Of a stretch of DNA of 48,705 nt, positions 1-8,850 are shown piece after piece. This stretch comes from Dehalococcoidales bacterium (GTDB lineage Bacteria > Chloroflexota > Dehalococcoidia > Dehalococcoidales > RBG-16-60-22), in assembly GCA_016926705.1 (NCBI GenBank), contig JAFGOC010000134.1:1-48705 (forward strand). Direction: 5' to 3'. The notes under the pieces are model-generated. The model was not told the origin of the DNA. It ran no database searches and saw nothing but the letters and a program-made list of their open reading frames with translations. A program made the translations under genes and the position numbers. Numbering within the stretch: position 1 is the first letter of the stretch; every line of letters begins with the position of its first letter.

Positions 1-126
1 CTCGTGGATACGGCCTGGTGGATTTCCACGTTCCCGGGTATTGCCATCGGGTTAGTAGTCCTTTCGGGGAATTTCCTGGGTGATTGGTTGCGTGATAAAT
101 TAGACCCGAGATTGAGGCAGTTATAA
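1..126 (+). CDS. 3' end of ABC peptide/nickel transporter permease (DppC/OppC family), partial
   Basis: My frame-1 translation [41 protein letters not shown] matches the typical DppC C-terminus (WW..FPG...N.LGD.LRD.LDP). Confidence 0.85.
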
Positions 127-141
127 CGAGATGTATTATCC

Positions 142-648
142 TTAGGGCAAAAAATCTCCCGACGGCTTTCTTGACGCGTGCCGCCGATCTCTTATTCCAT
201 CGAAGGTATCTGGAAGACTCGATATTACTTGATTTATCTCGTTACTATCTAATGCTTTTACTACTTTCTTTTCTGCCCTAGGTACTTTTATCTTAACTAA
301 AGGACTGGTTTCTAAAATACCTTCATTAACCGACCAGTTAAACATGGCAGATAATGCCCGGTAATATTTCTGAACGGTGGTAGAGTTTATTGGCTTCATA
401 GCTCGTGGACAGGTGCTATTAAAACGATGCGGTGTCTCTCTAAGATAAACAAGGAATTCACGCAAATGGTTAGCAGTGATAGCTTTAATGTTATCAGGCC
501 ACTTATAGTTCCTGGTATACCAGAGAAAGCCCTTGAGTTTATCAGTATAACATTCTATGGTGCCATAGGATTTACCTTCTACCTTACAGGATAACAGGAA
601 TTCGTCAATTGCTTGTTTTAGTGATGTAACCGTTTTATTATTAGACAT
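142..648 (-). pseudogene. Truncated tyrosine recombinase/integrase (N-terminal SAM-like/core-binding domain only)
   Basis: XerC/D-like N-terminus (FLLSCKVEGKSYGTIECY...STTVQKYYRALSAMFNW...SPLVKIKVP..EKKVVKALD..E). Similarity ends at GIRD, just before the catalytic domain; no R-H-R-Y residues. Confidence 0.8.
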
Positions 649-684
649 TGAACCTTTCCTCCTTCTCGTTCGAGCTAGCGCGAG

Positions 685-713
685 ATGCTAATGTATATTC
701 AGGAAAAGGTCAA
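685..713 (-). promoter_or_regulatory. Putative sigma70 promoter of the integrase
   Basis: Minus strand TTGACC-17 bp-TAGCAT, followed by an AGGAGG-type RBS before the start at 648. Confidence 0.5.
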
Positions 714-816
714 TACTTACGTGATATAAGTTTTTATAGTTAGAAAAATCCTTCTTCAATCTTGATTTCCTGCTAGGGATATGGCATATTTCAACATGCT
801 AGAGAGGTAACTCTTC

Positions 817-1407
817 ATGGGAGAAAAAATATACTTTGATACCAATCAGATATATTTTATTCGAAGAATAGCTGATGAGGCAGAAGGCTTCGAGTATGGT
901 GACTATTCATGGGCAAATAAAGTGTTCCCGCATAGCCCAGAAATGGTTGCAGACATTAAAGCTCTTTGTTATATCATATCTCTCCAATATCAATGGGACT
1001 TAGAATTCTGTGCAAGTAACGCTTCTTATACGGAGTTAATAAATAATACTAGCAATCGCGCACATGAAACTAGGAAGGCATGGGAAGCAGCGGGAGAAAA
1101 TCTTATCAATAAAGCACAAAAGTTACCGTCGATTGAACAAAAACAGTTCGATATAGAATCCATAACAGATAATCTCGAATTTATCAAAGATAAGGCGGAC
1201 AGGGAAATCATTAGAGATTTCATGAGACAGGAAGCGGATGTTCTGTTTACTTCTGACGATGACATTCTAAAGCATAAAAATAAACTTGTTCAGATGGGTA
1301 TAAAAGTGATGAGGCCAAGTGAGTGGATTAATGAATTTTTACAGGAAGTGCGTGGAGAAGAAGACGGCGTACAGTGGGTGGAAAGGATATTATTTACAAC
1401 AGGATAA
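817..1407 (+). CDS. PIN-domain protein (putative RNase)
   Basis: N-terminal YFDTN plus later acidic motifs DKADREII and LFTSDDDIL, typical of the PIN fold. Confidence 0.65.
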   Translation: MGEKIYFDTNQIYFIRRIADEAEGFEYGDYSWANKVFPHSPEMVADIKALCYIISLQYQWDLEFCASNASYTELINNTSNRAHETRKAWEAAGENLINKAQKLPSIEQKQFDIESITDNLEFIKDKADREIIRDFMRQEADVLFTSDDDILKHKNKLVQMGIKVMRPSEWINEFLQEVRGEEDGVQWVERILFTTG

Positions 1408-1414
1408 TTAAAAT

Positions 1415-1454
1415 TGGTAGTAGCAGCAGGATTTTAAATCACTATTAGCTTATG
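1415..1454. repeat. Degenerate copy of the tRNA 3' end (old att site)
   Basis: tggtagtagcagcaggattttaa matches tggtggtagcggcgggatttgaa at 19/23; the downstream gcttatg is also retained. Confidence 0.7.
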
Positions 1455-1462
1455 GAGAATAG

Positions 1463-1978
1463 ATGGCAATACTTGAAAATCCTAATAAACCTCGTCAACC
1501 ACAAAAGGGTGTATACGCTTGGTATGCAAGAAAAGAAGGTAGGAATTTAGTAATATATATTGGCCAAGCTGGATATAAAGATAGGCAAAAAGATACGTAC
1601 TTACAAAAAGGCACCTTATTTAGGGGCGTTAGTGAGTTACAAAGAGCGACATTTTCACAAGACTATACTCTTGACACCGATTTTATCGTGGGTACAGCAA
1701 TAATATTTTTTGAAAAGCATGGGTATAAATGCATATGGAAACATATCAGTAATAATCCTGAAGAAGAGAGAAGATTCATTGCCTCTGAACACCCGCTTCT
1801 GCAAAATAGAAACGGGCGAGTTAAAAACGTATTTAAAGTAAGGAAAGAAACTAAAGACTATTGGAAATTAAAGGGCATGGATGAAAACAGTAAACAACAG
1901 AAGATTAAGGAAGCAGAGTTAGAGATATTCAAGGAATTATCGAACATGCTAAAAAATGGTGGTAGCGGCGGGATTTGA
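1463..1978 (+). CDS. GIY-YIG family nuclease-like protein
   Basis: GVY...YIG motif (KGVYAWY...IYIGQAG) and a later E..FI...P..QN element. The stop codon lies inside the att repeat. Confidence 0.6.
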   Translation: MAILENPNKPRQPQKGVYAWYARKEGRNLVIYIGQAGYKDRQKDTYLQKGTLFRGVSELQRATFSQDYTLDTDFIVGTAIIFFEKHGYKCIWKHISNNPEEERRFIASEHPLLQNRNGRVKNVFKVRKETKDYWKLKGMDENSKQQKIKEAELEIFKELSNMLKNGGSGGI

Positions 1979-2002
1979 ACCTGCGACCAAGGGCTTATGA
2001 GT
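1957..2002. repeat. Perfect 46-bp direct repeat of the tRNA 3' half (attR-like)
   Basis: tggtggtagcggcgggatttgaacctgcgaccaagggcttatgagt is identical to 5841-5886. Confidence 0.95.
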
Positions 2003-2129
2003 GCCAGCTTCGTTTCTTAAAATTCCTGCGTTTTTCACACGAATCCTCCTTTTTTTCTAAGTTGCGCGATTCTAGGCCAAGTTCAGACAAAGGTCAAGAC
2101 ACAATTTCATAGAATGTGACAAAATCCTG

Positions 2130-2158
2130 TTGTGTCTTAAAGTATCAGATGATATAAT
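2130..2158 (+). promoter_or_regulatory. Sigma70 promoter of the islet operon
   Basis: TTGTGT-17 bp-TATAAT with extended -10 TG (tgaTATAAT). Confidence 0.6.
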
Positions 2159-2167
2159 CACAGTAAT

Positions 2168-2181
2168 AGTACATATGTTCT
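2168..2181. promoter_or_regulatory. Putative LexA (SOS) box
   Basis: AGTAC-ATAT-GTTCT, one mismatch from the Gram-positive/Chloroflexi type AGAAC-N4-GTTCT, 10 bp downstream of the -10. Confidence 0.6.
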
Positions 2182-2224
2182 TATCATATACCTAATAATT
2201 AATAATATAGTAAGAAAATTTACA

Positions 2225-3835
2225 ATGACGACAGTACAGGCATCGGCGAAAAGTCTAGTAAGAGTTCATGGGAGAGGGATACTCCTCTCTATCTTGGAGA
2301 AAGAAATTATCCTGAAAAGAATCATGGTACTTGATGATGAACGCTTCATTACAGAAACAAAGGACTGGGATTCGTATTGGCAGCCATTGCATGAACTTAA
2401 CCAGAGAGAGTTAGAAGATAGTCTTAACGTACTTCATATTACTTGGAGTAATTATCTCCGATCTAAGTTCAGTCCCCTTTTGAGGCAAGAATACTGTTTT
2501 CGCTATTTTTCTCTGCTAAATTATCTCATATCTAACTGTAAGGAAGTAAATAGACCTTTTCCATGGATTCATGCGCTCAAGGTAGCTCTCGGATTTGAAT
2601 GTTTCGGGATTACTACCGCGACTTCTGATACGTCAGTGCTTGGAGCCGGTACTTGTACACTTCGAAATCCATGCTACCTTTTAGCGAAACTTAAAATGCC
2701 TAACGTACCTGATGACCCTCAGTTCCTTCCTATGATTACGGTTACAAGCACCGAGAAACCAGAGCTATTTTATCATTACCGACAATATACGCTGTCTTCA
2801 GATTCACCAGTTTCATTAATGCTCTATCCAACGGTTGTTAAGGGAAAACGTTCGGCAAGTTTCCAGTTACTCAATTCTTTTGTGGGTGGGATAAGATATG
2901 CTGCCGACCCTTGGACTAATGAACGCGCACAACGTATTTTTCAAGGTATTATTTACCCCATAATCCAAACACACAAATCAGTCGAGCCTGGTATTTTCCC
3001 AATGGAAATAGTTGATGTCGGCGCTGGTAGCGGAAGTCTTGCTTCAAGAATATGCCATCATATTCAAAAAACAGTGATTTCCGATGGATTTCATCCAAGA
3101 TTACGATTGTGGTCTGTAGATTTGGAAGCTGCCGACCCAGCCCGATTTTTCAGGCATAAAAAATTGAGGGGTATGGTGGACAGTCTTTACTATCTTGGTG
3201 ATGATTACAGAAGTTGGCTGGAAAGACCACAACCATTACCTTCAAAAAATGGCCTTCGTATCGCCTTGGTATCTCGGCTCTTTAACAACCTGAGCTGCTT
3301 TTCCATTAGCTGTTTATCCAGAGAAGACTTGCATCCATTTATTGATAGGATGGAGGAATACTCAAACATAAAGGCACATCACCCCTCGGTATATTTGGCT
3401 CCAGGTGGGGGTGGTGTGAATTCACTCGTAATCTCGAACACTCGAGTAGCTCTTCAAGAGGGGAGAACCTTTGCCCAGGCATCTCTCGCTGATTTCTACT
3501 GGGGGATGTATTTAATTTCAAGGCCAAGGGAGTCCATTGATATACCTCAACAAGGGATTTTCTTACCTGTCAGGTCATTTAATCCCGAGTGCCTGATTAC
3601 ATCGAACGGCAACAGTGTAATTTCTTACTTGGTAGATAATTGTGATTATATTATTATTGAAGATGCCGATCTTACTCCAAAATATTTGATCGCTCATGCA
3701 AAGGCATTTTCGCTTTCCTCTATCACCATTTATGATATGACACAAGCATTAAGATTGAAGGGAAACTATTCCTATGTCATATGGCCAAGAAAGAAAATAA
3801 TGGCTCCGTCTTTTTCAGGTGAGAAAATATGGTAA
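2225..3835 (+). CDS. Hypothetical protein with a class I SAM-dependent methyltransferase-like domain
   Basis: SAM-binding motif I IVDVGAGSG followed by WSVDLE (motif II-like); N-terminal half not recognised. Confidence 0.5.
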   Translation: MTTVQASAKSLVRVHGRGILLSILEKEIILKRIMVLDDERFITETKDWDSYWQPLHELNQRELEDSLNVLHITWSNYLRSKFSPLLRQEYCFRYFSLLNYLISNCKEVNRPFPWIHALKVALGFECFGITTATSDTSVLGAGTCTLRNPCYLLAKLKMPNVPDDPQFLPMITVTSTEKPELFYHYRQYTLSSDSPVSLMLYPTVVKGKRSASFQLLNSFVGGIRYAADPWTNERAQRIFQGIIYPIIQTHKSVEPGIFPMEIVDVGAGSGSLASRICHHIQKTVISDGFHPRLRLWSVDLEAADPARFFRHKKLRGMVDSLYYLGDDYRSWLERPQPLPSKNGLRIALVSRLFNNLSCFSISCLSREDLHPFIDRMEEYSNIKAHHPSVYLAPGGGGVNSLVISNTRVALQEGRTFAQASLADFYWGMYLISRPRESIDIPQQGIFLPVRSFNPECLITSNGNSVISYLVDNCDYIIIEDADLTPKYLIAHAKAFSLSSITIYDMTQALRLKGNYSYVIWPRKKIMAPSFSGEKIW

Positions 3836-4767
3836 ATGTAACACGAATTGACCGTAAGTCAGTTGTTCTCTCTCCATCGAGTCTAGCATGCTTAGCTCAC
3901 ATTCCAGCAGTTAATCTTACCTCCGGGTGTGCTCATGATTGCCTCTATTGTTATGCGCGTGGGTACAGTGTTTTTCCCGGCGAGAATAAGGTTGTTGTCT
4001 ACAAAAACACTCTGGATAAATTAAAAAGGGAACTTGCGCATAAACGAACCAAACCACAGGCAGTGTATTTCAGTCCGTCCAGTGATATTTTTCAGCCTGT
4101 ATCAGAGGTGATAGAGCTTGGTTATTCTGTATTGGAATTCTTACTTGCCAGTGGTATCGGCATCGCCATTCTGACTAAAGGATTTATTCCAAATGAAACG
4201 TTTAAACTCCTATTAACTTATCCGAATAAAGTCAGGGTGCAGATAGGAATTATTACCGCAGATGATACTTTACGGAGTATTTTTGAGCCGAACGCTGCAA
4301 GTATAAGTACGCGCCTTGAACAGATGACGAAACTGGTTCAATGTGGTATCGTTACGGAAGCACGGGTAATTCCCATTCTACCTGGAATCACAGACGAACA
4401 TGGTTCTATCGATCAGTTATTAAGCACCATAGCAAGTACCGGGGTAAAACGTGTTGCAATAAGCACCCTTTTCTTAAGACCTGCTATAACTGCATCTTTA
4501 AAACGGCGCATTACTGATAATAATATTTTTGAGAATCTATTAGGCCAGTTTAAGAGCGAAAAGCGCTTGGCAGTGCATGCCGAAAACTCTTCCATTATCC
4601 CGTTATCACGATTAAAAAGAGAGGAAATATACACCCGTTTCGGGCAAGTGGCGAAAAAATATGCTTTAGATTTATCGATTTGTGGATGTATGAATCCTGA
4701 TATTGGTGGTACATGTAATATAACAGGAGAATGGCCGGCAAATGACACCCAATCAAGTATGTTTTAA
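3829..4767 (+). CDS. Radical SAM protein, SplB/Rv2578c-like (DNA repair photolyase-related)
   Basis: GCAHDCLYCYAR (CxxxCxxC), SSDIFQP, ILTKG, FEPNAAS...RL and PILPGITD are typical of the SPL-like family. Confidence 0.85.
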   Translation: MVNVTRIDRKSVVLSPSSLACLAHIPAVNLTSGCAHDCLYCYARGYSVFPGENKVVVYKNTLDKLKRELAHKRTKPQAVYFSPSSDIFQPVSEVIELGYSVLEFLLASGIGIAILTKGFIPNETFKLLLTYPNKVRVQIGIITADDTLRSIFEPNAASISTRLEQMTKLVQCGIVTEARVIPILPGITDEHGSIDQLLSTIASTGVKRVAISTLFLRPAITASLKRRITDNNIFENLLGQFKSEKRLAVHAENSSIIPLSRLKREEIYTRFGQVAKKYALDLSICGCMNPDIGGTCNITGEWPANDTQSSMF

Positions 4768-4796
4768 TGATATGATTCACGCTAGAAGAGGAATAA

Positions 4797-5435
4797 ATGA
4801 AGCTTCAGAATATTTCGATTGGATTACTTTTAGAGCACCCCGAAAACAGTAACTTCATGAACGCGGAGACAGCCCAAAAACTGCGTAGGCATATTGAACA
4901 AACCGGAAGATATGAACCCTTAACAGTAAGACCGCATCTCAATGAAGATGGTAAATTCCAGGTAATTAATGGTCACAACCGTTTGCGAGTCCTCCGTGCT
5001 CTTGATTACCAGACGGTAAACTGTATTGTCTGGGATCTTGATGATGATCAAACCAGGTTGTATCTAGCCACACTTAACCGTCTCTCAGGTTGTGATGTCC
5101 CCGAACGCAGGGCAGCACTTTTAGAAAACTTGCTAACTAACTTTGATATTGATGAACTGACCAAGCTGCTTCCTGACGACAGAAAGCAGATGGAGGAGCT
5201 CAAGCGACTGTCTCAAATTAAATTGGAAGAAATAATACCTCAGGCTGTGACCGAAGAAGGATTTGAAGTCCCAGTTATCCTTGATTTTTTAATCGAGGAG
5301 TTCGAAGCCAAAGAAATCAATCTCGCCCTTGACCTGATTGTCAATAGAGAGAAGAGGAAAATTACCCGTGGTCAAGCCCTGGTCAGTCTTGCTCGTTTCT
5401 ACCTCAGGCGCTGTCAGGAACCAACCGGAGTCTAG
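4797..5435 (+). CDS. ParB/sulfiredoxin-like N-terminal domain protein
   Basis: HPEN..., LRRHIEQTGRYEPLTVR...FQVINGHNRLRVL (ParBc GxxR motif), ..LATLNRL. Confidence 0.8.
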   Translation: MKLQNISIGLLLEHPENSNFMNAETAQKLRRHIEQTGRYEPLTVRPHLNEDGKFQVINGHNRLRVLRALDYQTVNCIVWDLDDDQTRLYLATLNRLSGCDVPERRAALLENLLTNFDIDELTKLLPDDRKQMEELKRLSQIKLEEIIPQAVTEEGFEVPVILDFLIEEFEAKEINLALDLIVNREKRKITRGQALVSLARFYLRRCQEPTGV

Positions 5436-5436
5436 G

Positions 5437-5838
5437 ATGGACAAAGATATATACGCCGAGAAGCTTGCCTATTTTAAACAGAATGAGAAACCAGAGGTAG
5501 TACTCCTGATAGCAGACAATCCGGAACTTATTAAAATAATCATTGCCTGGACAAATATTGATGTGAAGCGTGTTGATAAATTAACTCCTATATCCAATGA
5601 CTCCGAAAGGGAAATCTGGGAATGGCTCTGGCAGAACACTAAGTTTTCTCTTACTGAATTAAAAGAAAAAGCAGATATACCCTGTGTTGAATCTGTTTTA
5701 GCGCAGAAAATAAAGCCTCTTATCGGTAATCGTATTATATATCCTGACGGCACTGTTAATTCTTATGTACAGCGATATTTTAAAGAACGGGTGGTAAAAC
5801 TCTTCGATGCGAAATCAAAGAGACCTGTTAAAAAATAA
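5437..5838 (+). CDS. Hypothetical protein, possible winged-helix C-terminus
   Basis: ATG 1 bp after the ParB stop; SLTELKEKADI...LIGNRIIY resembles a wHTH; stop lies 2 bp before the tRNA 3' end. Confidence 0.6.
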   Translation: MDKDIYAEKLAYFKQNEKPEVVLLIADNPELIKIIIAWTNIDVKRVDKLTPISNDSEREIWEWLWQNTKFSLTELKEKADIPCVESVLAQKIKPLIGNRIIYPDGTVNSYVQRYFKERVVKLFDAKSKRPVKK

Positions 5839-5840
5839 AA

Positions 5841-5915
5841 TGGTGGTAGCGGCGGGATTTGAACCTGCGACCAAGGGCTTATGAGTCCCCTGCTCTACCA
5901 CTGAGCTACGCTACC
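5841..5915 (-). tRNA. tRNA-Met(CAT), probably elongator (Ile2 not fully excluded)
   Basis: Reverse complement GGTAGCGTAGCTCAGTGGTAGAGCAGGGGACTCATAAGCCCTTGGTCGCAGGTTCAAATCCCGCCGCTACCACCA: cloverleaf, CAT anticodon, encoded CCA, G1-C72 paired (so not initiator). Confidence 0.95.
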
Positions 5916-5951
5916 AACCAGAAAAAATATAGCATTACATGAAGCTAGATG

Positions 5952-7031
5952 TCAATGCCGGGCGATGACATGAATGCTGACGGCTTTAACAGTCCCGAAC
6001 ACCTTAAGACCCTTTTTCAGGTCCATTTCTTCAGCCGACCTCCTGGTAACAAGAGATACTAATGGAAACCCACAGTCTATCTCCAGTCGGCAGAGAGGCC
6101 CGCTGTAGGCCGTCCAGATGATTGTGCCCTCGAGCACATTACGAGCACTGCTGGACAGCCTGGCAAGAGAAACCGTAACATCCTCGGGACGGATGCAGAC
6201 CGACACTTTTTCATCCACGCCATGTTCGGTAATCGCCTCAATCGTCTTACCATAAACACTAATTGCAGCCATATTTCCTTCATTAGATATGACTTCGCCA
6301 TCGATGATATTTTCCATGCCGACGAACTCGGCTACCTCGCGGTTCTTAGGGGAGGTAAAAACCTCGCGGGCGTTGCCGGTCTGTACAATCTCGCCGTCAA
6401 TAAGCACGCTTATCCTGTCGGCCAAGCGCTGGCCCTGTTCCATATCGTGAGTGGACATCAATACAGTGATGGCATTCTGTTTAATAATGCCGGATATCAA
6501 GTCTTCAATTTTCGCAGCGGAAACGGGGTCGAGGTTGGCAGAGGGCTCATCCAGCAGCAATATCTCCGGACCGGTGGCGATAGCCCGGGCGATAGCGACC
6601 CGCTGCATCTCACCGCCGGAAAGTGTCCGGGCGTTTCGTTTACTATATTTCACCAATTCCACGGTCTCTAGAATATCGTTAACTTTTTCACGTATTACAT
6701 GTTTTTTCAGGCCGCGCCATTTCAAGCCGTAAGCCACGTTATCATATACACTCAAATTAAAGACGACCGGTTTTTGCAATACAAAAGCCATCCGACGCCG
6801 AATCTCAAGTCTTGATTTTTCAGAGTGCGAAACGGCAACGCCATTTATGAATATCTTGCCCGTACCTGGCATATCCAGCATATCAATCAATCTTAAAAAG
6901 GTAGTCTTGCCGGCACCAGTGGGGCCGATCAGGGCATGGGTCTCACCCTTTTCGACCGCCAGGTTGACGTTCTTAAGGATATCCCGTCCTTCCCTTTTGT
7001 ATCCCAAATTAACTGTTTGAATAAATGCCAT
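5952..7031 (-). CDS. tupC: Tungstate ABC transporter ATP-binding protein with TOBE domains
   Basis: GPTGAGKT, LSGGE, LLLDEP, C-terminal TOBE (SSARNVL...KAVSIH); in operon with tupAB. Confidence 0.85.
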   Translation of the reverse strand: MAFIQTVNLGYKREGRDILKNVNLAVEKGETHALIGPTGAGKTTFLRLIDMLDMPGTGKIFINGVAVSHSEKSRLEIRRRMAFVLQKPVVFNLSVYDNVAYGLKWRGLKKHVIREKVNDILETVELVKYSKRNARTLSGGEMQRVAIARAIATGPEILLLDEPSANLDPVSAAKIEDLISGIIKQNAITVLMSTHDMEQGQRLADRISVLIDGEIVQTGNAREVFTSPKNREVAEFVGMENIIDGEVISNEGNMAAISVYGKTIEAITEHGVDEKVSVCIRPEDVTVSLARLSSSARNVLEGTIIWTAYSGPLCRLEIDCGFPLVSLVTRRSAEEMDLKKGLKVFGTVKAVSIHVIARH

Positions 7032-7720
7032 TATTGCCTCTGCTGTATCCTATTCATCGCGAAATTCACCACGAGAGCAATAAAGATCAGGATAATACCC
7101 AGAGCGAGAGACAGTTCGATATCACCTTTGGATGTTTCAAGCGATATGGCAGTGGTAAGTACCCGGGTGAAACCCCTGATGTTGCCGCCGACCATTATGG
7201 CGAGTCCAACCTCGGAAATAGCCCTTCCGAAGGCCAATATGACTGCCGCCATAACCGCAAATCTCGCCTCTTTTATAATCGCTACCGCCGTCTGCCAGTT
7301 ACTGGCCCCCATCGAACGCGCTGTATCTATAATCGTCTTGTCAACTCCGCTCAAACCGGTGATGGTTAAACCAGTGAGTATCGGTGATATTAATATTACC
7401 TGGCCAATCACCATAACCATAGGAGTAAACATAATGTCTAATCCGCCCAGCGGCCCTTTATTGGAAAAAAGAATAAATACAAATAATCCTACGGTTACTG
7501 TAGGTACACTGTAAAAAGTCTGAATGATACTGATTAAAATTCGCTTGCCGCGGAAATTATTGAAGTGGATAAGGCTACCTACTGGCACACAGATTAGCGA
7601 AGCGATAAGAGTTGAGGATATGGCAACCCGAATCGAGAGCCAGGCTATCTGCATTACCTCCGGGTCGAAGGTAAATATCAGACGTAAAGCCCTAACCAGA
7701 CCATTCCATATTTCTTCCAA
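7031..7720 (-). CDS. tupB: Tungstate ABC transporter permease
   Basis: FGRAISEVG...GGNIRGFTRVLTTAISLET signature. Confidence 0.9.
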   Translation of the reverse strand: MEEIWNGLVRALRLIFTFDPEVMQIAWLSIRVAISSTLIASLICVPVGSLIHFNNFRGKRILISIIQTFYSVPTVTVGLFVFILFSNKGPLGGLDIMFTPMVMVIGQVILISPILTGLTITGLSGVDKTIIDTARSMGASNWQTAVAIIKEARFAVMAAVILAFGRAISEVGLAIMVGGNIRGFTRVLTTAISLETSKGDIELSLALGIILIFIALVVNFAMNRIQQRQ

Positions 7721-7812
7721 TTAATTAAACTCCCCGGAGCAAATTAAACAGCAGAACTTTAGCGAGGCCGCCGAAGTCTTTTTAGTCGGCCCCGCCATAA
7801 CTCTGTTGCGTA

Positions 7813-8850
7813 TTAAGAAGAGGTATATCGTTCTATTATACTGTTTACAGGGGTATAAGATGGAACCGGTTCGGTGTAAGCCTCAACAGGGGGGAAGCCG
7901 GGCAGATCAGCACTGCCGTCCTCCTGGCCACGCCCGATAGGATTGAATAACGAACGCCCGTATTCAGCCAAACCATAAGTAGCTAGAACATTCTGGACTT
8001 CCTCAGATATCAGCCAGTTTATAAATATATTGGTGATATCAATATTAGTACCCGGGTCGCTTTCCGGATTGATGGCTATAGCCGCGTACACATTGAGGAA
8101 AATCGAATCCTGCTCCACCAGCAGAGTGATATCAAGAGGATTCATTTGTGTGTAAGACAGATATGTCGAGATATCCGCCAGCACGTAAGCATTCATTTCA
8201 TTAGCCATGAGCAGGGTGGGGCCCATGCCCTTGCCGGCCTCAACATACCAGTCGCCAGAGTCCTGGATATCGGTTGCGTAGTCAAACCCAGCATTACTCC
8301 AGATAATTTTTTCCTTGGAGTGGGTACCAGATAAATCGCCGCGTGATACGAATCTTATAGAACCGGGGGCATTCATGCCCGCTTCATAAATTTTCGTAAA
8401 AGCTTCTACCGCGGTACAACCCTTTATACCCGCCGGGTCGTTTTCCGGTCCGGCGATGAGGAAAAAGTTGTAAGCGAAATTCCGTCGATTGATGCCATAA
8501 CCCTCGTCGATGAATTTATCTTCCGCCGCTTTGTCATGCACGATAACAACATCAACATCACCGCGGCGTCCGTATTCCAGAGCAATGCCAGTGCCAGCAT
8601 AAATAATATCCATTTCTACGTTAGCATATTCTTCAAAAAGGGGTTCCAGATAATACCACAGGCCGGAATCATATAGACTGGTAGTCGTGGCTATTTTAAA
8701 TCTTACCAGAGGGTCGTGAATTGAGTAGGACCCGGGTTCTCCGGAAGCTGACTCATCCCTACCACAGCCTGCTACCATTGAGACAAGCCCTGCTACCATT
8801 ACAATAGCCAGTATCACGTTGAAAATTTTACCGGTGGTGACTGCTCTCAT
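7813..8850 (-). CDS. tupA: Tungstate ABC transporter substrate-binding lipoprotein
   Basis: ATTTSLYDSGL, GTGIAL, FVSRGDLSGTHSKE motifs; lipobox VAGC. Confidence 0.9.
   Translation of the reverse strand: MRAVTTGKIFNVILAIVMVAGLVSMVAGCGRDESASGEPGSYSIHDPLVRFKIATTTSLYDSGLWYYLEPLFEEYANVEMDIIYAGTGIALEYGRRGDVDVVIVHDKAAEDKFIDEGYGINRRNFAYNFFLIAGPENDPAGIKGCTAVEAFTKIYEAGMNAPGSIRFVSRGDLSGTHSKEKIIWSNAGFDYATDIQDSGDWYVEAGKGMGPTLLMANEMNAYVLADISTYLSYTQMNPLDITLLVEQDSIFLNVYAAIAINPESDPGTNIDITNIFINWLISEEVQNVLATYGLAEYGRSLFNPIGRGQEDGSADLPGFPPVEAYTEPVPSYTPVNSIIERYTSS

What the first reader, a model, noticed from the sequence alone, without database searches (positions are those of the whole stretch)
142..5915. Integron-like cassette stack built on repeated tRNA-Met 3' ends
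Seen: the tRNA 3' half occurs three times in the same orientation: in the intact tRNA (5841), as a perfect 46-bp copy (1957) and as a decayed copy (1415, 19/23 plus gcttatg). The copies separate co-oriented units: PIN gene | GIY-YIG gene | 4-gene operon | tRNA. Each unit's last stop codon sits at the att copy to its right (7 bp before it, inside it, and 2 bp before it). One unit is a single ~0.5-kb ORF with no room for a promoter, and neither att-bounded unit has its own integrase. The only recombinase is at the far end, transcribed divergently. The copy farthest from the tRNA is the decayed one. Known: tandem island accretion at tRNA/ssrA occurs, including in Dehalococcoides, but those islands normally carry their own integrases. 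Inference: one tyrosine recombinase serially captured minimal gene cassettes using the tRNA 3' end as a reusable att site, like an integron without attC hairpins.
Basis: partly seen in the sequence, partly recalled or inferred. Interest (0 to 1): 0.85.

Follow-up and report, generated by a model that had tools for sequence, protein, structure and literature searches.

The report
Decayed mobile-element stack at tRNA-Met
A tRNA gene of an uncultured, probably Dehalococcoidia bacterium is followed by a stack of small foreign gene units separated by copies of the tRNA's end; this is best read as repeated insertions of small mobile elements whose integrase genes later rotted away, a known process, not a new integron-like machine.

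Summary
The repeats are real. The tRNA(CAT) 3' part plus 4 bases (50 nt) recurs perfectly at 1953-2002. A decayed copy at 1411-1437 (23/27) beats chance (1 of 2000 resamplings). The units and stop-codon positions are as described. The model of one recombinase capturing cassettes does not hold. The integrase ORF is only residues 1-158 of a ~319-aa enzyme, with no catalytic domain. The window is a whole contig, and the array probably continues on contig C8. A second integrase remnant (promoter, RBS, 12-codon leader reading into the att copy) lies at 2003-2110. Across 78 related stretches I found 58 att-to-att units: 5 have a full integrase (7-14 kb), 13 have integrase fragments and 40 have none (mostly about 1 kb). 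The fragments abut the att edge in a graded series. Best reading: tandem accretion of small integrase-bearing elements at a tRNA hotspot, followed by erosion of the integrases. The int-less units that remain resemble cis-mobilizable elements (CIMEs), as described for Dehalococcoides ssrA islands in 2011. Trans-mobilised cassettes are not excluded. By-products: a possible bacterial "suicidal" integrase, and a 4-gene DNA-modification-like module that recurs as a stand-alone unit at several RNA-gene att sites.

The parts
1..126 (+). 3' end (41 codons) of an ABC-type permease gene at the contig edge; probably island cargo, not the chromosomal flank
   Evidence: ORF. A 77%-identical second copy lies at G000:C96, and homologs in G001, G009 and G010 lie far from the tRNA locus. 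The window is the whole contig C12.
142..648 (-). Truncated tyrosine integrase gene (A-type, own start codon). Homology covers 648->184, residues 1-158 of a ~319-aa protein; the catalytic domain is missing
   Evidence: Pfam finds only Phage_int_SAM_5/_4. tblastn gives 88% identity to P0001 residues 1-158. Full-length relatives are 295-356 aa and carry PF00589.
649..720 (-). RBS and promoter region of the truncated integrase (TTGACC-17-TAGCAT, 713->685)
   Evidence: Conserved with the upstream regions of the fragments in G054 and G010. Promoter scan; nhmmer match (E 0.016).
817..1407 (+). 196-aa ORF, 'PIN-like' by motif only; its stop lies 3 nt before the decayed att copy
   Evidence: ORF. No Pfam/NCBIfam family. 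Weak PADLOC PDC-M11A hit, E 1.3e-4.
1411..1454 (+). Decayed copy of the tRNA 3' part (attR-type remnant); 23/27 over 1411-1437, then degenerate
   Evidence: 1 of 2000 resamplings reach its score.
1463..1978 (+). 171-aa ORF with a GIY-YIG-like motif only; its last 7 codons and stop are encoded by the att copy
   Evidence: ORF. No family in Pfam, NCBIfam, PHROGs or PADLOC.
1953..2002 (+). Perfect 50-nt copy of AAAA plus the 46-nt 3' part of the tRNA (displaced tRNA end)
2003..2110 (-). Remnant of a second (B-type) integrase gene's 5' end: promoter TTGACC-17-TAGAAT (2097->2069), RBS (2049->2045), GTG (2038->2036) and 12 codons reading into the att copy
   Evidence: Homologous modules lie right of att copies in G022, G012:C5 and metagenome contig L152 (nhmmer E <= 1e-26; sequences). 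Promoter. Same frame and same 12-codon length in 4 of 4.
2225..3835 (+). 536-aa protein, first gene of a conserved 4-gene module; SAM-methyltransferase-like (lead only)
   Evidence: No Pfam/NCBIfam/PHROGs family. Atlas look-alikes are Methyltransf_28 clusters, score 0.91. The 4-gene block is conserved in G023, G169, G309, G199 and G318.
3829..4767 (+). Radical SAM protein of the SPL / Rv2578c-PA0069 kind
   Evidence: Pfam Radical_SAM 2.7e-14; NCBIfam rSAM_Rv2578c 2.6e-28, below the cut-off.
4797..5435 (+). ParB N-terminal-domain protein (212 aa)
   Evidence: Pfam ParB_N 3.1e-7; PHROGs ParB-like hits.
5437..5838 (+). 133-aa protein of unknown family ('c133'), always the last gene of the module; its stop lies 2 nt before the tRNA end
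   Evidence: Homologs in G012:C5 (76%), G309, G023 and G169. No family found.
5841..5915 (-). Intact tRNA with anticodon CAT (called Met; could be Ile2), the integration target; its promoter is at 5955->5926
5952..7031 (-). ABC-transporter ATPase gene, the conserved chromosomal flank on the tRNA's 5' side
   Evidence: Synteny with the tRNA is kept in G003, G016, G006, G001, G013, G005, G017 and G002 at 72-79% DNA identity.

Best explanation
The 3' end of this tRNA(CAT) gene is an integration hotspot.

Proposed course of events:
- Several small integrative elements, each brought in by its own Xer-like tyrosine integrase (at least two subfamilies, A and B), inserted one after another into the tRNA's 46-nt 3' part.
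- Each insertion restored the tRNA and pushed the old 3' end outward as a partial copy. The newest unit is therefore next to the tRNA, and the oldest copy is the most decayed.
- After insertion the integrase genes were lost by deletion. On one side the deletions were bounded by the tRNA or att edge, on the other by a retained cargo gene.
- What remains are short att-bounded units of one to four intact genes that often end flush with the next att copy.

Shown here: the repeats, the integrase remnants, the variability of the locus among relatives, and the size/decay series.
Inferred: the order of events, deletion as the cause of integrase loss, and selection on cargo.
Open: whether the int-less units can still move (CIME-like).
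For: In the window:
- The perfect 50-nt copy and a significant decayed copy lie in the expected order.
- The island has foreign GC.
- The integrase gene is cut to residues 1-158 of ~319.
- A second integrase remnant (promoter, RBS, leader) lies at 2003-2110.
- So 2 of the 3 units in the window carry integrase debris of two different subfamilies.

In relatives:
- 10 of 17 orthologous tRNA loci have extra co-oriented partial copies, with different cargo in each.
- The conserved left flank in the genus (a 161-aa cupin-like gene) lies 0.9-2.6 kb from the tRNA in G001, G005, G009, G017, G013 and G004, with different genes in between.
- Classical islands with a full integrase next to the same tRNA occur in G012, G027, G011, G025 and G030.

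Census: 58 att-to-att units in 78 stretches.
- 5 have a full integrase (7.2-14.3 kb).
- 13 have fragments (1.0-7.4 kb).
- 40 have none (0.36-9.7 kb; 28 are under 1.4 kb).

Signs of one-sided erosion:
- Integrase stumps abut the att/tRNA edge in a graded series: residues 118-353, 257-316, 275-353, 289-353 and 304-353.
- Arrays of 3-7 C-terminal stumps occur in L089, L112, L104 and L100.
- The same cargo appears with a full integrase in L082 and only a stump in L091. A 478-aa cargo sits in a 1.69-kb int-less unit in L079 and in a 2.86-kb unit with an integrase fragment in L109.

Precedent: Dehalococcoides ssrA islands form tandem arrays bounded by direct repeats; of 31 islands, 16 have and 15 lack an integration module (PMC3146451, sections 5 and 10).
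Against: - 40 of 58 units show no integrase trace at all, including the GIY-YIG-like unit here. For these, 'once had an integrase' is inference.
- Int-less small units are strongly co-oriented (23 only plus-strand, 9 only minus-strand, 7 mixed). In 17-18 of 39 the last gene stops within 40 nt of the next att. This regularity also fits purpose-built cassettes.
- The 4-gene module is the sole content of att-bounded 3.3-4.2-kb units at four or five different att types: tRNA(CAT) in G000 and G012:C5, tRNA-Leu in G023, ssrA in G169, and another tRNA-like repeat in G309. None has an integrase. Under pure decay this needs repeated trimming to the same content.
- G000 and G012:C5 share both unit ends (leader module; c133 stop 2 nt from att) but differ inside; the radical SAM proteins are 24% identical.
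- The census detected integrases only by tblastn with six tyrosine-integrase queries at E <= 1e-3, and att copies only at score >= 18. Other recombinase types would be missed.
Confidence: 0.6

Rival explanations
1. Active cassette capture. Int-less units that carry only the 46-nt core are excised and inserted in trans by Xer-like integrases encoded elsewhere. The tRNA end then works as a reusable capture site, like an integron or like cis/trans-mobilizable CIMEs.
For: - The family-1 integrases are ~310-aa CB+CAT proteins; Pfam finds only SAM-like and Phage_integrase domains. It follows from general knowledge of Cre/Xer-type enzymes, not from a test here, that a core site alone might suffice.
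- Int-less units are co-oriented and often flush with att.
- Module-only units occur at several att types.
- Unit ends are shared between G000 and G012:C5 while the interiors differ.
- A 222-aa unit sits next to the tRNA in both G004 and G017, behind different older neighbours, with the same 39-nt att break-point.
Against: - No event of movement was seen. The public runs are held as contigs only and gave no interpretable joint.
- No intact family-1 integrase was found in this genome, which is 78.6% complete.
- The integrase in the window is dead.
- One cargo at four att types would need four attP versions.
- The decay series explains flush ends without mobility.
- Units carry their own promoter-like sequences, unlike most integron cassettes.
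Confidence: 0.25
2. Assembly artefact: the stack is a chimera of strains or repeats in a metagenome-assembled contig.
For: - The genome is a 146-contig MAG.
- Both array pieces sit at contig ends.
- The source-like run holds related variants of the integrase region (table 3 and record 3).
Against: - The same architecture recurs in many independent assemblies, including genomes of 2-9 contigs.
- A 50-nt repeat is short relative to reads.
- The ORFs are intact and the junctions are clean.
Confidence: 0.03
3. The copies are not att scars but functional elements (for example 3' stem-loops or terminators), or arose by local duplication.
For: The copies sit directly after stop codons.
Against: - The copies are always the 3' part of the neighbouring RNA gene and in its orientation. 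They switch to tRNA-Leu or ssrA sequence when the same cargo lies beside those genes.
- They decay with distance from the tRNA.
- Integrase genes and stumps abut them.
- The terminator scan found nothing at them.
Confidence: 0.03

Closest known systems
Tandem ssrA genomic islands of Dehalococcoides (McMurdie et al. 2011, PMC3146451; sections 5 and 10 and 'find' passages read)
   Same: - Islands are stacked in tandem downstream of a small RNA gene and bounded by direct repeats of its 3' end.
- Content varies between strains.
- About half (15 of 31) lack an integration module and were proposed to be cis-mobilizable elements moved by accretion.
- A ParB-domain gene and a DNA-modification gene sit in the island backbone.
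- In G169 the window's 4-gene module sits in exactly such an ssrA island.
   Different: - The target here is a tRNA(CAT) with a 46-nt core, not 20 nt of ssrA.
- The recombinases are Xer-like tyrosine integrases, not serine recombinases DsiA/B.
- Units are much smaller, with a median of about 1 kb and one gene.
CIMEs and site-specific accretion in Streptococcus thermophilus (Pavlovic et al. 2004; seen only as a reference in PMC3146451 and in the listing, otherwise recalled)
   Same: att-flanked elements without recombination genes, formed by deletion and kept in tandem with integrase-bearing elements.
   Different: Mobility in cis was shown experimentally there; none is shown here. No conjugative partner is seen here.
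Integrons (from established knowledge, not tested against a reference here)
   Same: A stack of mostly single-gene, co-oriented units, each followed by a recombination site.
   Different: - There is no IntI-type integrase, no attI and no attC hairpins.
- The newest unit lies farthest from the integrase remnant.
- Units have their own promoter-like sequences.
- Several integrase lineages are involved.
Archaeal SSV-type 'suicidal' integrases (Badel et al. 2020, PMC7253208; abstract and passages read)
   Same: In the B-type integrase the att sequence is read as part of the ORF. The promoter, RBS and first codons lie on the other side of att. Integration would therefore separate int(N) from the int body and leave pseudogene stumps at unit borders.
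   Different: - That paper states the type is 'so far restricted to archaea'.
- Here int(N) is only 12 codons, so the body keeps all domains.
- No intact contiguous gene was found.
- In the window only the int(N)-like part is present.
ICEclc Pcirc
   Same: An outward-facing promoter at the far end of an integrated element that can drive the integrase only across the joined att site.
   Different: In ICEclc the integrase keeps its own start codon. Here the start codon and RBS also lie across att.

Membership tests
Integron | IntI-type tyrosine recombinase gene, intact, next to attI | tested here: not met
   The only integrase ORF has no catalytic domain. No PF00589 match lies on this contig.
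Integron | Cassettes end in attC sites (imperfect inverted repeats folding as hairpins) | tested here: not met
   The repeats are direct copies of the tRNA 3' part. When the same cargo lies beside tRNA-Leu or ssrA, the repeats are those genes' ends.
Integron | Cassette excision and insertion by the integrase | not testable with these tools
   Only contigs of public runs were available.
tRNA-integrated genomic islands in tandem (accretion) | Direct repeat of the tRNA 3' part at the far border of each unit, with an intact tRNA at the near border | tested here: met
tRNA-integrated genomic islands in tandem (accretion) | Site-specific integrase associated with the units | tested here: inconclusive
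   The window holds remnants only, at 184-648 and 2003-2110. Full integrases lie next to the same tRNA in G012, G027, G011, G025, G030 and L082. 40 of 58 units have no trace.
tRNA-integrated genomic islands in tandem (accretion) | Foreign composition and presence/absence variation among relatives | tested here: met
   GC profile. Cargo differs between genomes of the same genus. The 536-aa cargo occurs in 9 of 363 genomes of the order.
Cis-mobilizable element (CIME) | Flanked by att sites, with no recombination or transfer genes | tested here: met
   The units 1455-2002 and 2003-5840 have no recombinase domain.
Cis-mobilizable element (CIME) | Mobilised together with, or by, an integrase-bearing neighbour | not testable with these tools
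   No read-level data.
SSV-type (suicidal) integrase | attP lies inside the integrase ORF | tested here: inconclusive
   - The frame is open from the tRNA 3' part through a 28-aa linker into the integrase in 6 loci; only one has a Met there. Proteins P0103, P0115, P0094, P0119 and P0120 show the same.
- A leader with RBS and promoter lies across att in 4 loci, in the same frame.
- The ORF is continuous only at the G022 junction, and it is truncated there.
- No full-length leader-containing protein was among the 4 hits.
SSV-type (suicidal) integrase | int(N) and int(C) flank the same integrated element | tested here: not met
   In the 3 leader-bearing units whose near end is known (G000, G012:C5, G022), no integrase body lies at the tRNA-side end.

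The most novel reading that the evidence does not exclude
The tRNA(CAT) 3' end of Dehalococcoidia is a working gene-capture platform. Xer-like integrases that need only the 46-nt core would move int-less one-gene units in trans. The B-type enzyme would be a bacterial 'suicidal' integrase, with its promoter, RBS and first 12 codons lying across attP. An incoming unit that carries this leader could then re-arm a promoterless integrase body left beside the tRNA, as the in-frame junction in G022 suggests.
Probability: 0.15. Interest if true: 0.8.

Novelty: new variant of a known kind. Interest (0 to 1): 0.5.

Why it matters
If the main reading holds, the locus is a clear and unusually compact example of how streamlined genomes keep useful cargo from mobile elements and discard the mobility genes. 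It extends the Dehalococcoides ssrA-island picture to a tRNA(CAT) hotspot used across a whole order. Two by-products are worth testing.

- **Split integrase gene.** In one integrase subfamily the gene seems to be split by its own integration. That design is stated in print to be restricted to archaea (PMC7253208).
- **Stand-alone module.** A methyltransferase-like / radical-SAM / ParB / small-protein module travels as a stand-alone att-bounded unit at several RNA-gene sites.

Tried and rejected
- **Excision evidence.** The look-up of sequencing runs gave 3 runs, all held as contigs. Read laying showed patchy cover and one joint, 691->5837, in one contig of the probable source run (side 34). 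This may be a related strain with the integrase next to the tRNA. It shows neither excision nor its absence.
- **Contig joining.** No k-mer overlap (25-55 nt) links the starts of C12 or C8 to any other contig. The C8-C12 link rests only on the conserved cupin-like flank.
- **Intact B-type integrase with leader.**
  - None was found in viral contigs.
  - Only 4 proteins of 350 aa or more were found, none with the leader.
  - The leader-att pattern occurs in 3 of 363 genomes of the order and in 2 metagenome contigs, one of which is the G022 contig again.
- **Structure of the 536-aa protein.** AlphaFold2 on a 4-sequence alignment gave mean pLDDT 43.4. This is too poor, so no fold search was run.
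- **Atlas look-alikes.** The 536-aa protein got a methyltransferase lead. c133 got nothing above 0.85.
- **Is the 4-gene module self-mobile?** Rejected as unsupported. Homology among five copies starts at the operon promoter and ends at the c133 stop, with no shared termini. No recombinase family was found.
- **Family labels.** PADLOC gave only a weak PDC-M11A hit for 817-1407 and MTase_II hits on the ParB domain.
- **tRNA identity.** The genome has three CAT tRNAs. The one on C93 looks initiator-like. I could not decide whether the window's is elongator Met or Ile2. Its likeness to E. coli ileX is recalled, not tested.
- **Supplements.** Paper supplements were not opened. The McMurdie supplementary figures may bear on att embedded in dsiB.

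Full report
**What is there**

The window is a whole contig (C12) of a 146-contig, 78.6%-complete MAG. The closest integrases and att sites lie in records titled Dehalococcoidia, Dehalococcoidales or Chloroflexota MAGs.

- A tRNA with anticodon CAT lies at 5841-5915 on the minus strand.
- Its 46-nt 3' part plus four A's recurs perfectly at 1953-2002.
- A third copy at 1411-1437 is 23/27 identical.
  - Only 1 of 2000 resamplings of the island's own composition reaches its score anywhere on that strand.
  - In the whole genome 5 non-tRNA loci reach it; three are real copies, this one and two on contig C8.
- GC is 0.36-0.44 in the island against about 0.5 beyond the tRNA.

**The integrase**

ORF 142-648 has only the N-terminal SAM-like domain. 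It equals residues 1-158 of 319-aa relatives at 88% identity, so it cannot recombine anything.

It is also not at the end of the array.
- Position 1 is a contig end.
- Bases 1-126 are a second copy of a permease gene. The resident copy is on C96, and its homologs in relatives lie far from this tRNA.
- In six genomes of the genus, the conserved flank on this side of the tRNA is a 161-aa cupin-like gene.
- In this genome that gene lies on contig C8, followed by two more partial tRNA copies. These bracket a single DUF169 gene whose stop is 2-3 nt before the second copy.
- So the array is probably longer than the window shows. No sequence overlap proves the link.

**A second integrase remnant**

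Directly right of the perfect copy, 2003-2110 holds four elements on the minus strand:
- a strong promoter match (TTGACC-17-TAGAAT);
- an RBS;
- a GTG start;
- 12 codons that run into the att copy.

The same module abuts att copies in G022, G012:C5 and metagenome contig L152, with the same 12-codon length and the same frame. Its promoter part is homologous to the upstream region of the truncated integrase. In G022 the leader, the att copy and an integrase body form one continuous ORF.

A 'B' subfamily of these integrases has a frame that stays open from the tRNA 3' part through a 28-aa linker into the core-binding domain. This holds in six loci and five database proteins, with a Met in the linker only once. 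This suggests that attP lies inside the gene, so that integration separates the promoter and start from the body. Badel et al. state that this design is so far restricted to archaea (PMC7253208, Introduction passage).

The evidence is incomplete.
- No intact contiguous gene was found.
- The three leader-bearing units with a known near end lack an integrase body there.

**Relatives**

- Of 17 orthologous tRNA loci fetched, 10 have further co-oriented partial copies within the stretch. The cargo is different in each.
- Others have a classical island with a full integrase beside the tRNA.
- I examined 78 stretches: window 1-8000, the C8 end, 20 stretches from relatives, and 56 of the 59 loci (three overlapping ones dropped). 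They hold 58 att-to-att units.

| Integrase content | Units | Size |
|---|---|---|
| Full integrase | 5 | 7.2-14.3 kb |
| Fragments | 13 | 1.0-7.4 kb |
| None | 40 | 0.36-9.7 kb (28 under 1.4 kb) |

  One of the 58 (in L129) is probably false.
- Integrase stumps abut the att or tRNA edge in a graded series, from residues 118-353 down to 304-353. Some arrays hold 3-7 such stumps.
- The same cargo occurs with a full integrase in L082 and a stump in L091. Another cargo occurs with and without an integrase fragment in L109 and L079.

This is the pattern expected if each unit arrived with its own integrase and that gene was then eroded. The erosion would start from the att side, because the tRNA must stay intact, and stop at the retained cargo gene. 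It also explains flush stop codons without a cassette design.

**What argues the other way**

- Among 39 small int-less units, 23 have only plus-strand ORFs, 9 only minus-strand and 7 mixed. In 17 (18 after correcting a miscall in the window) the last gene stops within 40 nt of the next att.
- The window's 4-gene operon is a conserved module. It comprises a methyltransferase-like 536-aa protein, an SPL-type radical SAM, a ParB-domain protein and a 133-aa protein. It occurs in 9 of 363 genomes of the order.
- This module is the only content of att-bounded units in several places, with no integrase in any. A sixth copy, in G199, showed no flanking repeat.

| Genome | Neighbouring site | Repeat |
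|---|---|---|
| G023 | tRNA-Leu | ~19-nt repeat |
| G169 | ssrA | 17-20-nt repeat 3.96 kb away |
| G309 | another tRNA-like sequence | 43 nt, 98% identical, spacing 4169 |
| G012:C5 (variant form) | tRNA(CAT) copy | - |

- Homology among the copies is limited to the operon and its promoter.

These regularities keep trans-mobilisation alive as a rival. No movement was observed, and this genome shows no intact integrase of the family.

**Comparison with what is known**

McMurdie et al. 2011 (PMC3146451, sections 5 and 10 read) describe tandem islands downstream of Dehalococcoides ssrA, bounded by 20-bp repeats.
- Of 31 islands, 16 have an integration module and 15 do not.
- They propose that the latter are cis-mobilizable elements moved by accretion.

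The present locus is the same kind of thing at a tRNA, with tyrosine instead of serine recombinases and much smaller units. It fails the defining features of an integron: no IntI, no attI, no attC.

A search for Dehalococcoidia + tRNA + genomic island + integrase + tandem found no paper. That search covers only the open-access library.

**Verdict**

The mechanism proposed is only partly right.

| Reading | Confidence |
|---|---|
| Accretion plus integrase decay (best) | 0.6 |
| Active capture in trans | 0.25 |
| Assembly artefact | 0.03 |
| Functional elements or local duplication, not att scars | 0.03 |

Novelty: a new variant of a known kind. Interest is moderate, raised by the possible bacterial split-integrase design and by the recurrent stand-alone module.

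Noticed in passing
window 2003-2110; L034 (G022) 69-740; L027 (G012:C5); L152 1189-1330: A subfamily of Xer-like integrases seems to carry attP inside its ORF. The promoter, RBS and 12 codons lie on one side of the 46-nt core. On the other side lie a 28-aa linker with no start codon and the integrase body. This would be a bacterial analogue of the archaeal SSV-type 'suicidal' integrases.
   Followed up: partly
window 2225-5838; L147 (G023), L148 (G169), L149 (G309), L150 (G199), L027 (G012:C5): A conserved module (methyltransferase-like or ParB-MTase, SPL-type radical SAM, ParB domain, 133-aa protein) recurs as the sole content of 3.3-4.2-kb units. These units are bounded by repeats of tRNA(CAT), tRNA-Leu, ssrA or another tRNA-like sequence. 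Its function is unknown; it looks like a DNA-modification system.
   Followed up: partly
G000 contig C8 1-2200 (locus L003): Two more partial copies of the same tRNA end bracket a single DUF169 gene beside the cupin-like gene that flanks the tRNA locus in relatives. This is probably the distal part of the same array, separated from the window by an assembly gap.
   Followed up: partly
window 5841-5915; G000 C79 1919-1994; C93 7540-7614: The genome has three CAT-anticodon tRNAs. The target may be tRNA-Ile2 (lysidine) and not elongator tRNA-Met. ARAGORN cannot tell, and my impression rests on recall.
   Followed up: no
L032 (G002:C105), att hits at 931-1035 and 1676-1776 in tRNA-minus orientation: A composite repeat in which the 5' and 3' portions of the att copy are separated by about 20-30 nt of other sequence, present twice about 740 nt apart. 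Not explained.
   Followed up: no
G000 contig C124, tRNA-Ser 7118-7207: A partial copy of this tRNA's 3' part lies about 200 nt away, and a tyrosine recombinase gene sits at the contig start (9-881). This may be a second, small integration site.
   Followed up: no
L031 (G017) 1677-1931 and L152 845-1099: An 84-aa Smr-domain gene recurs directly beside the tRNA or an att copy, on the tRNA's strand, in two unrelated assemblies.
   Followed up: no
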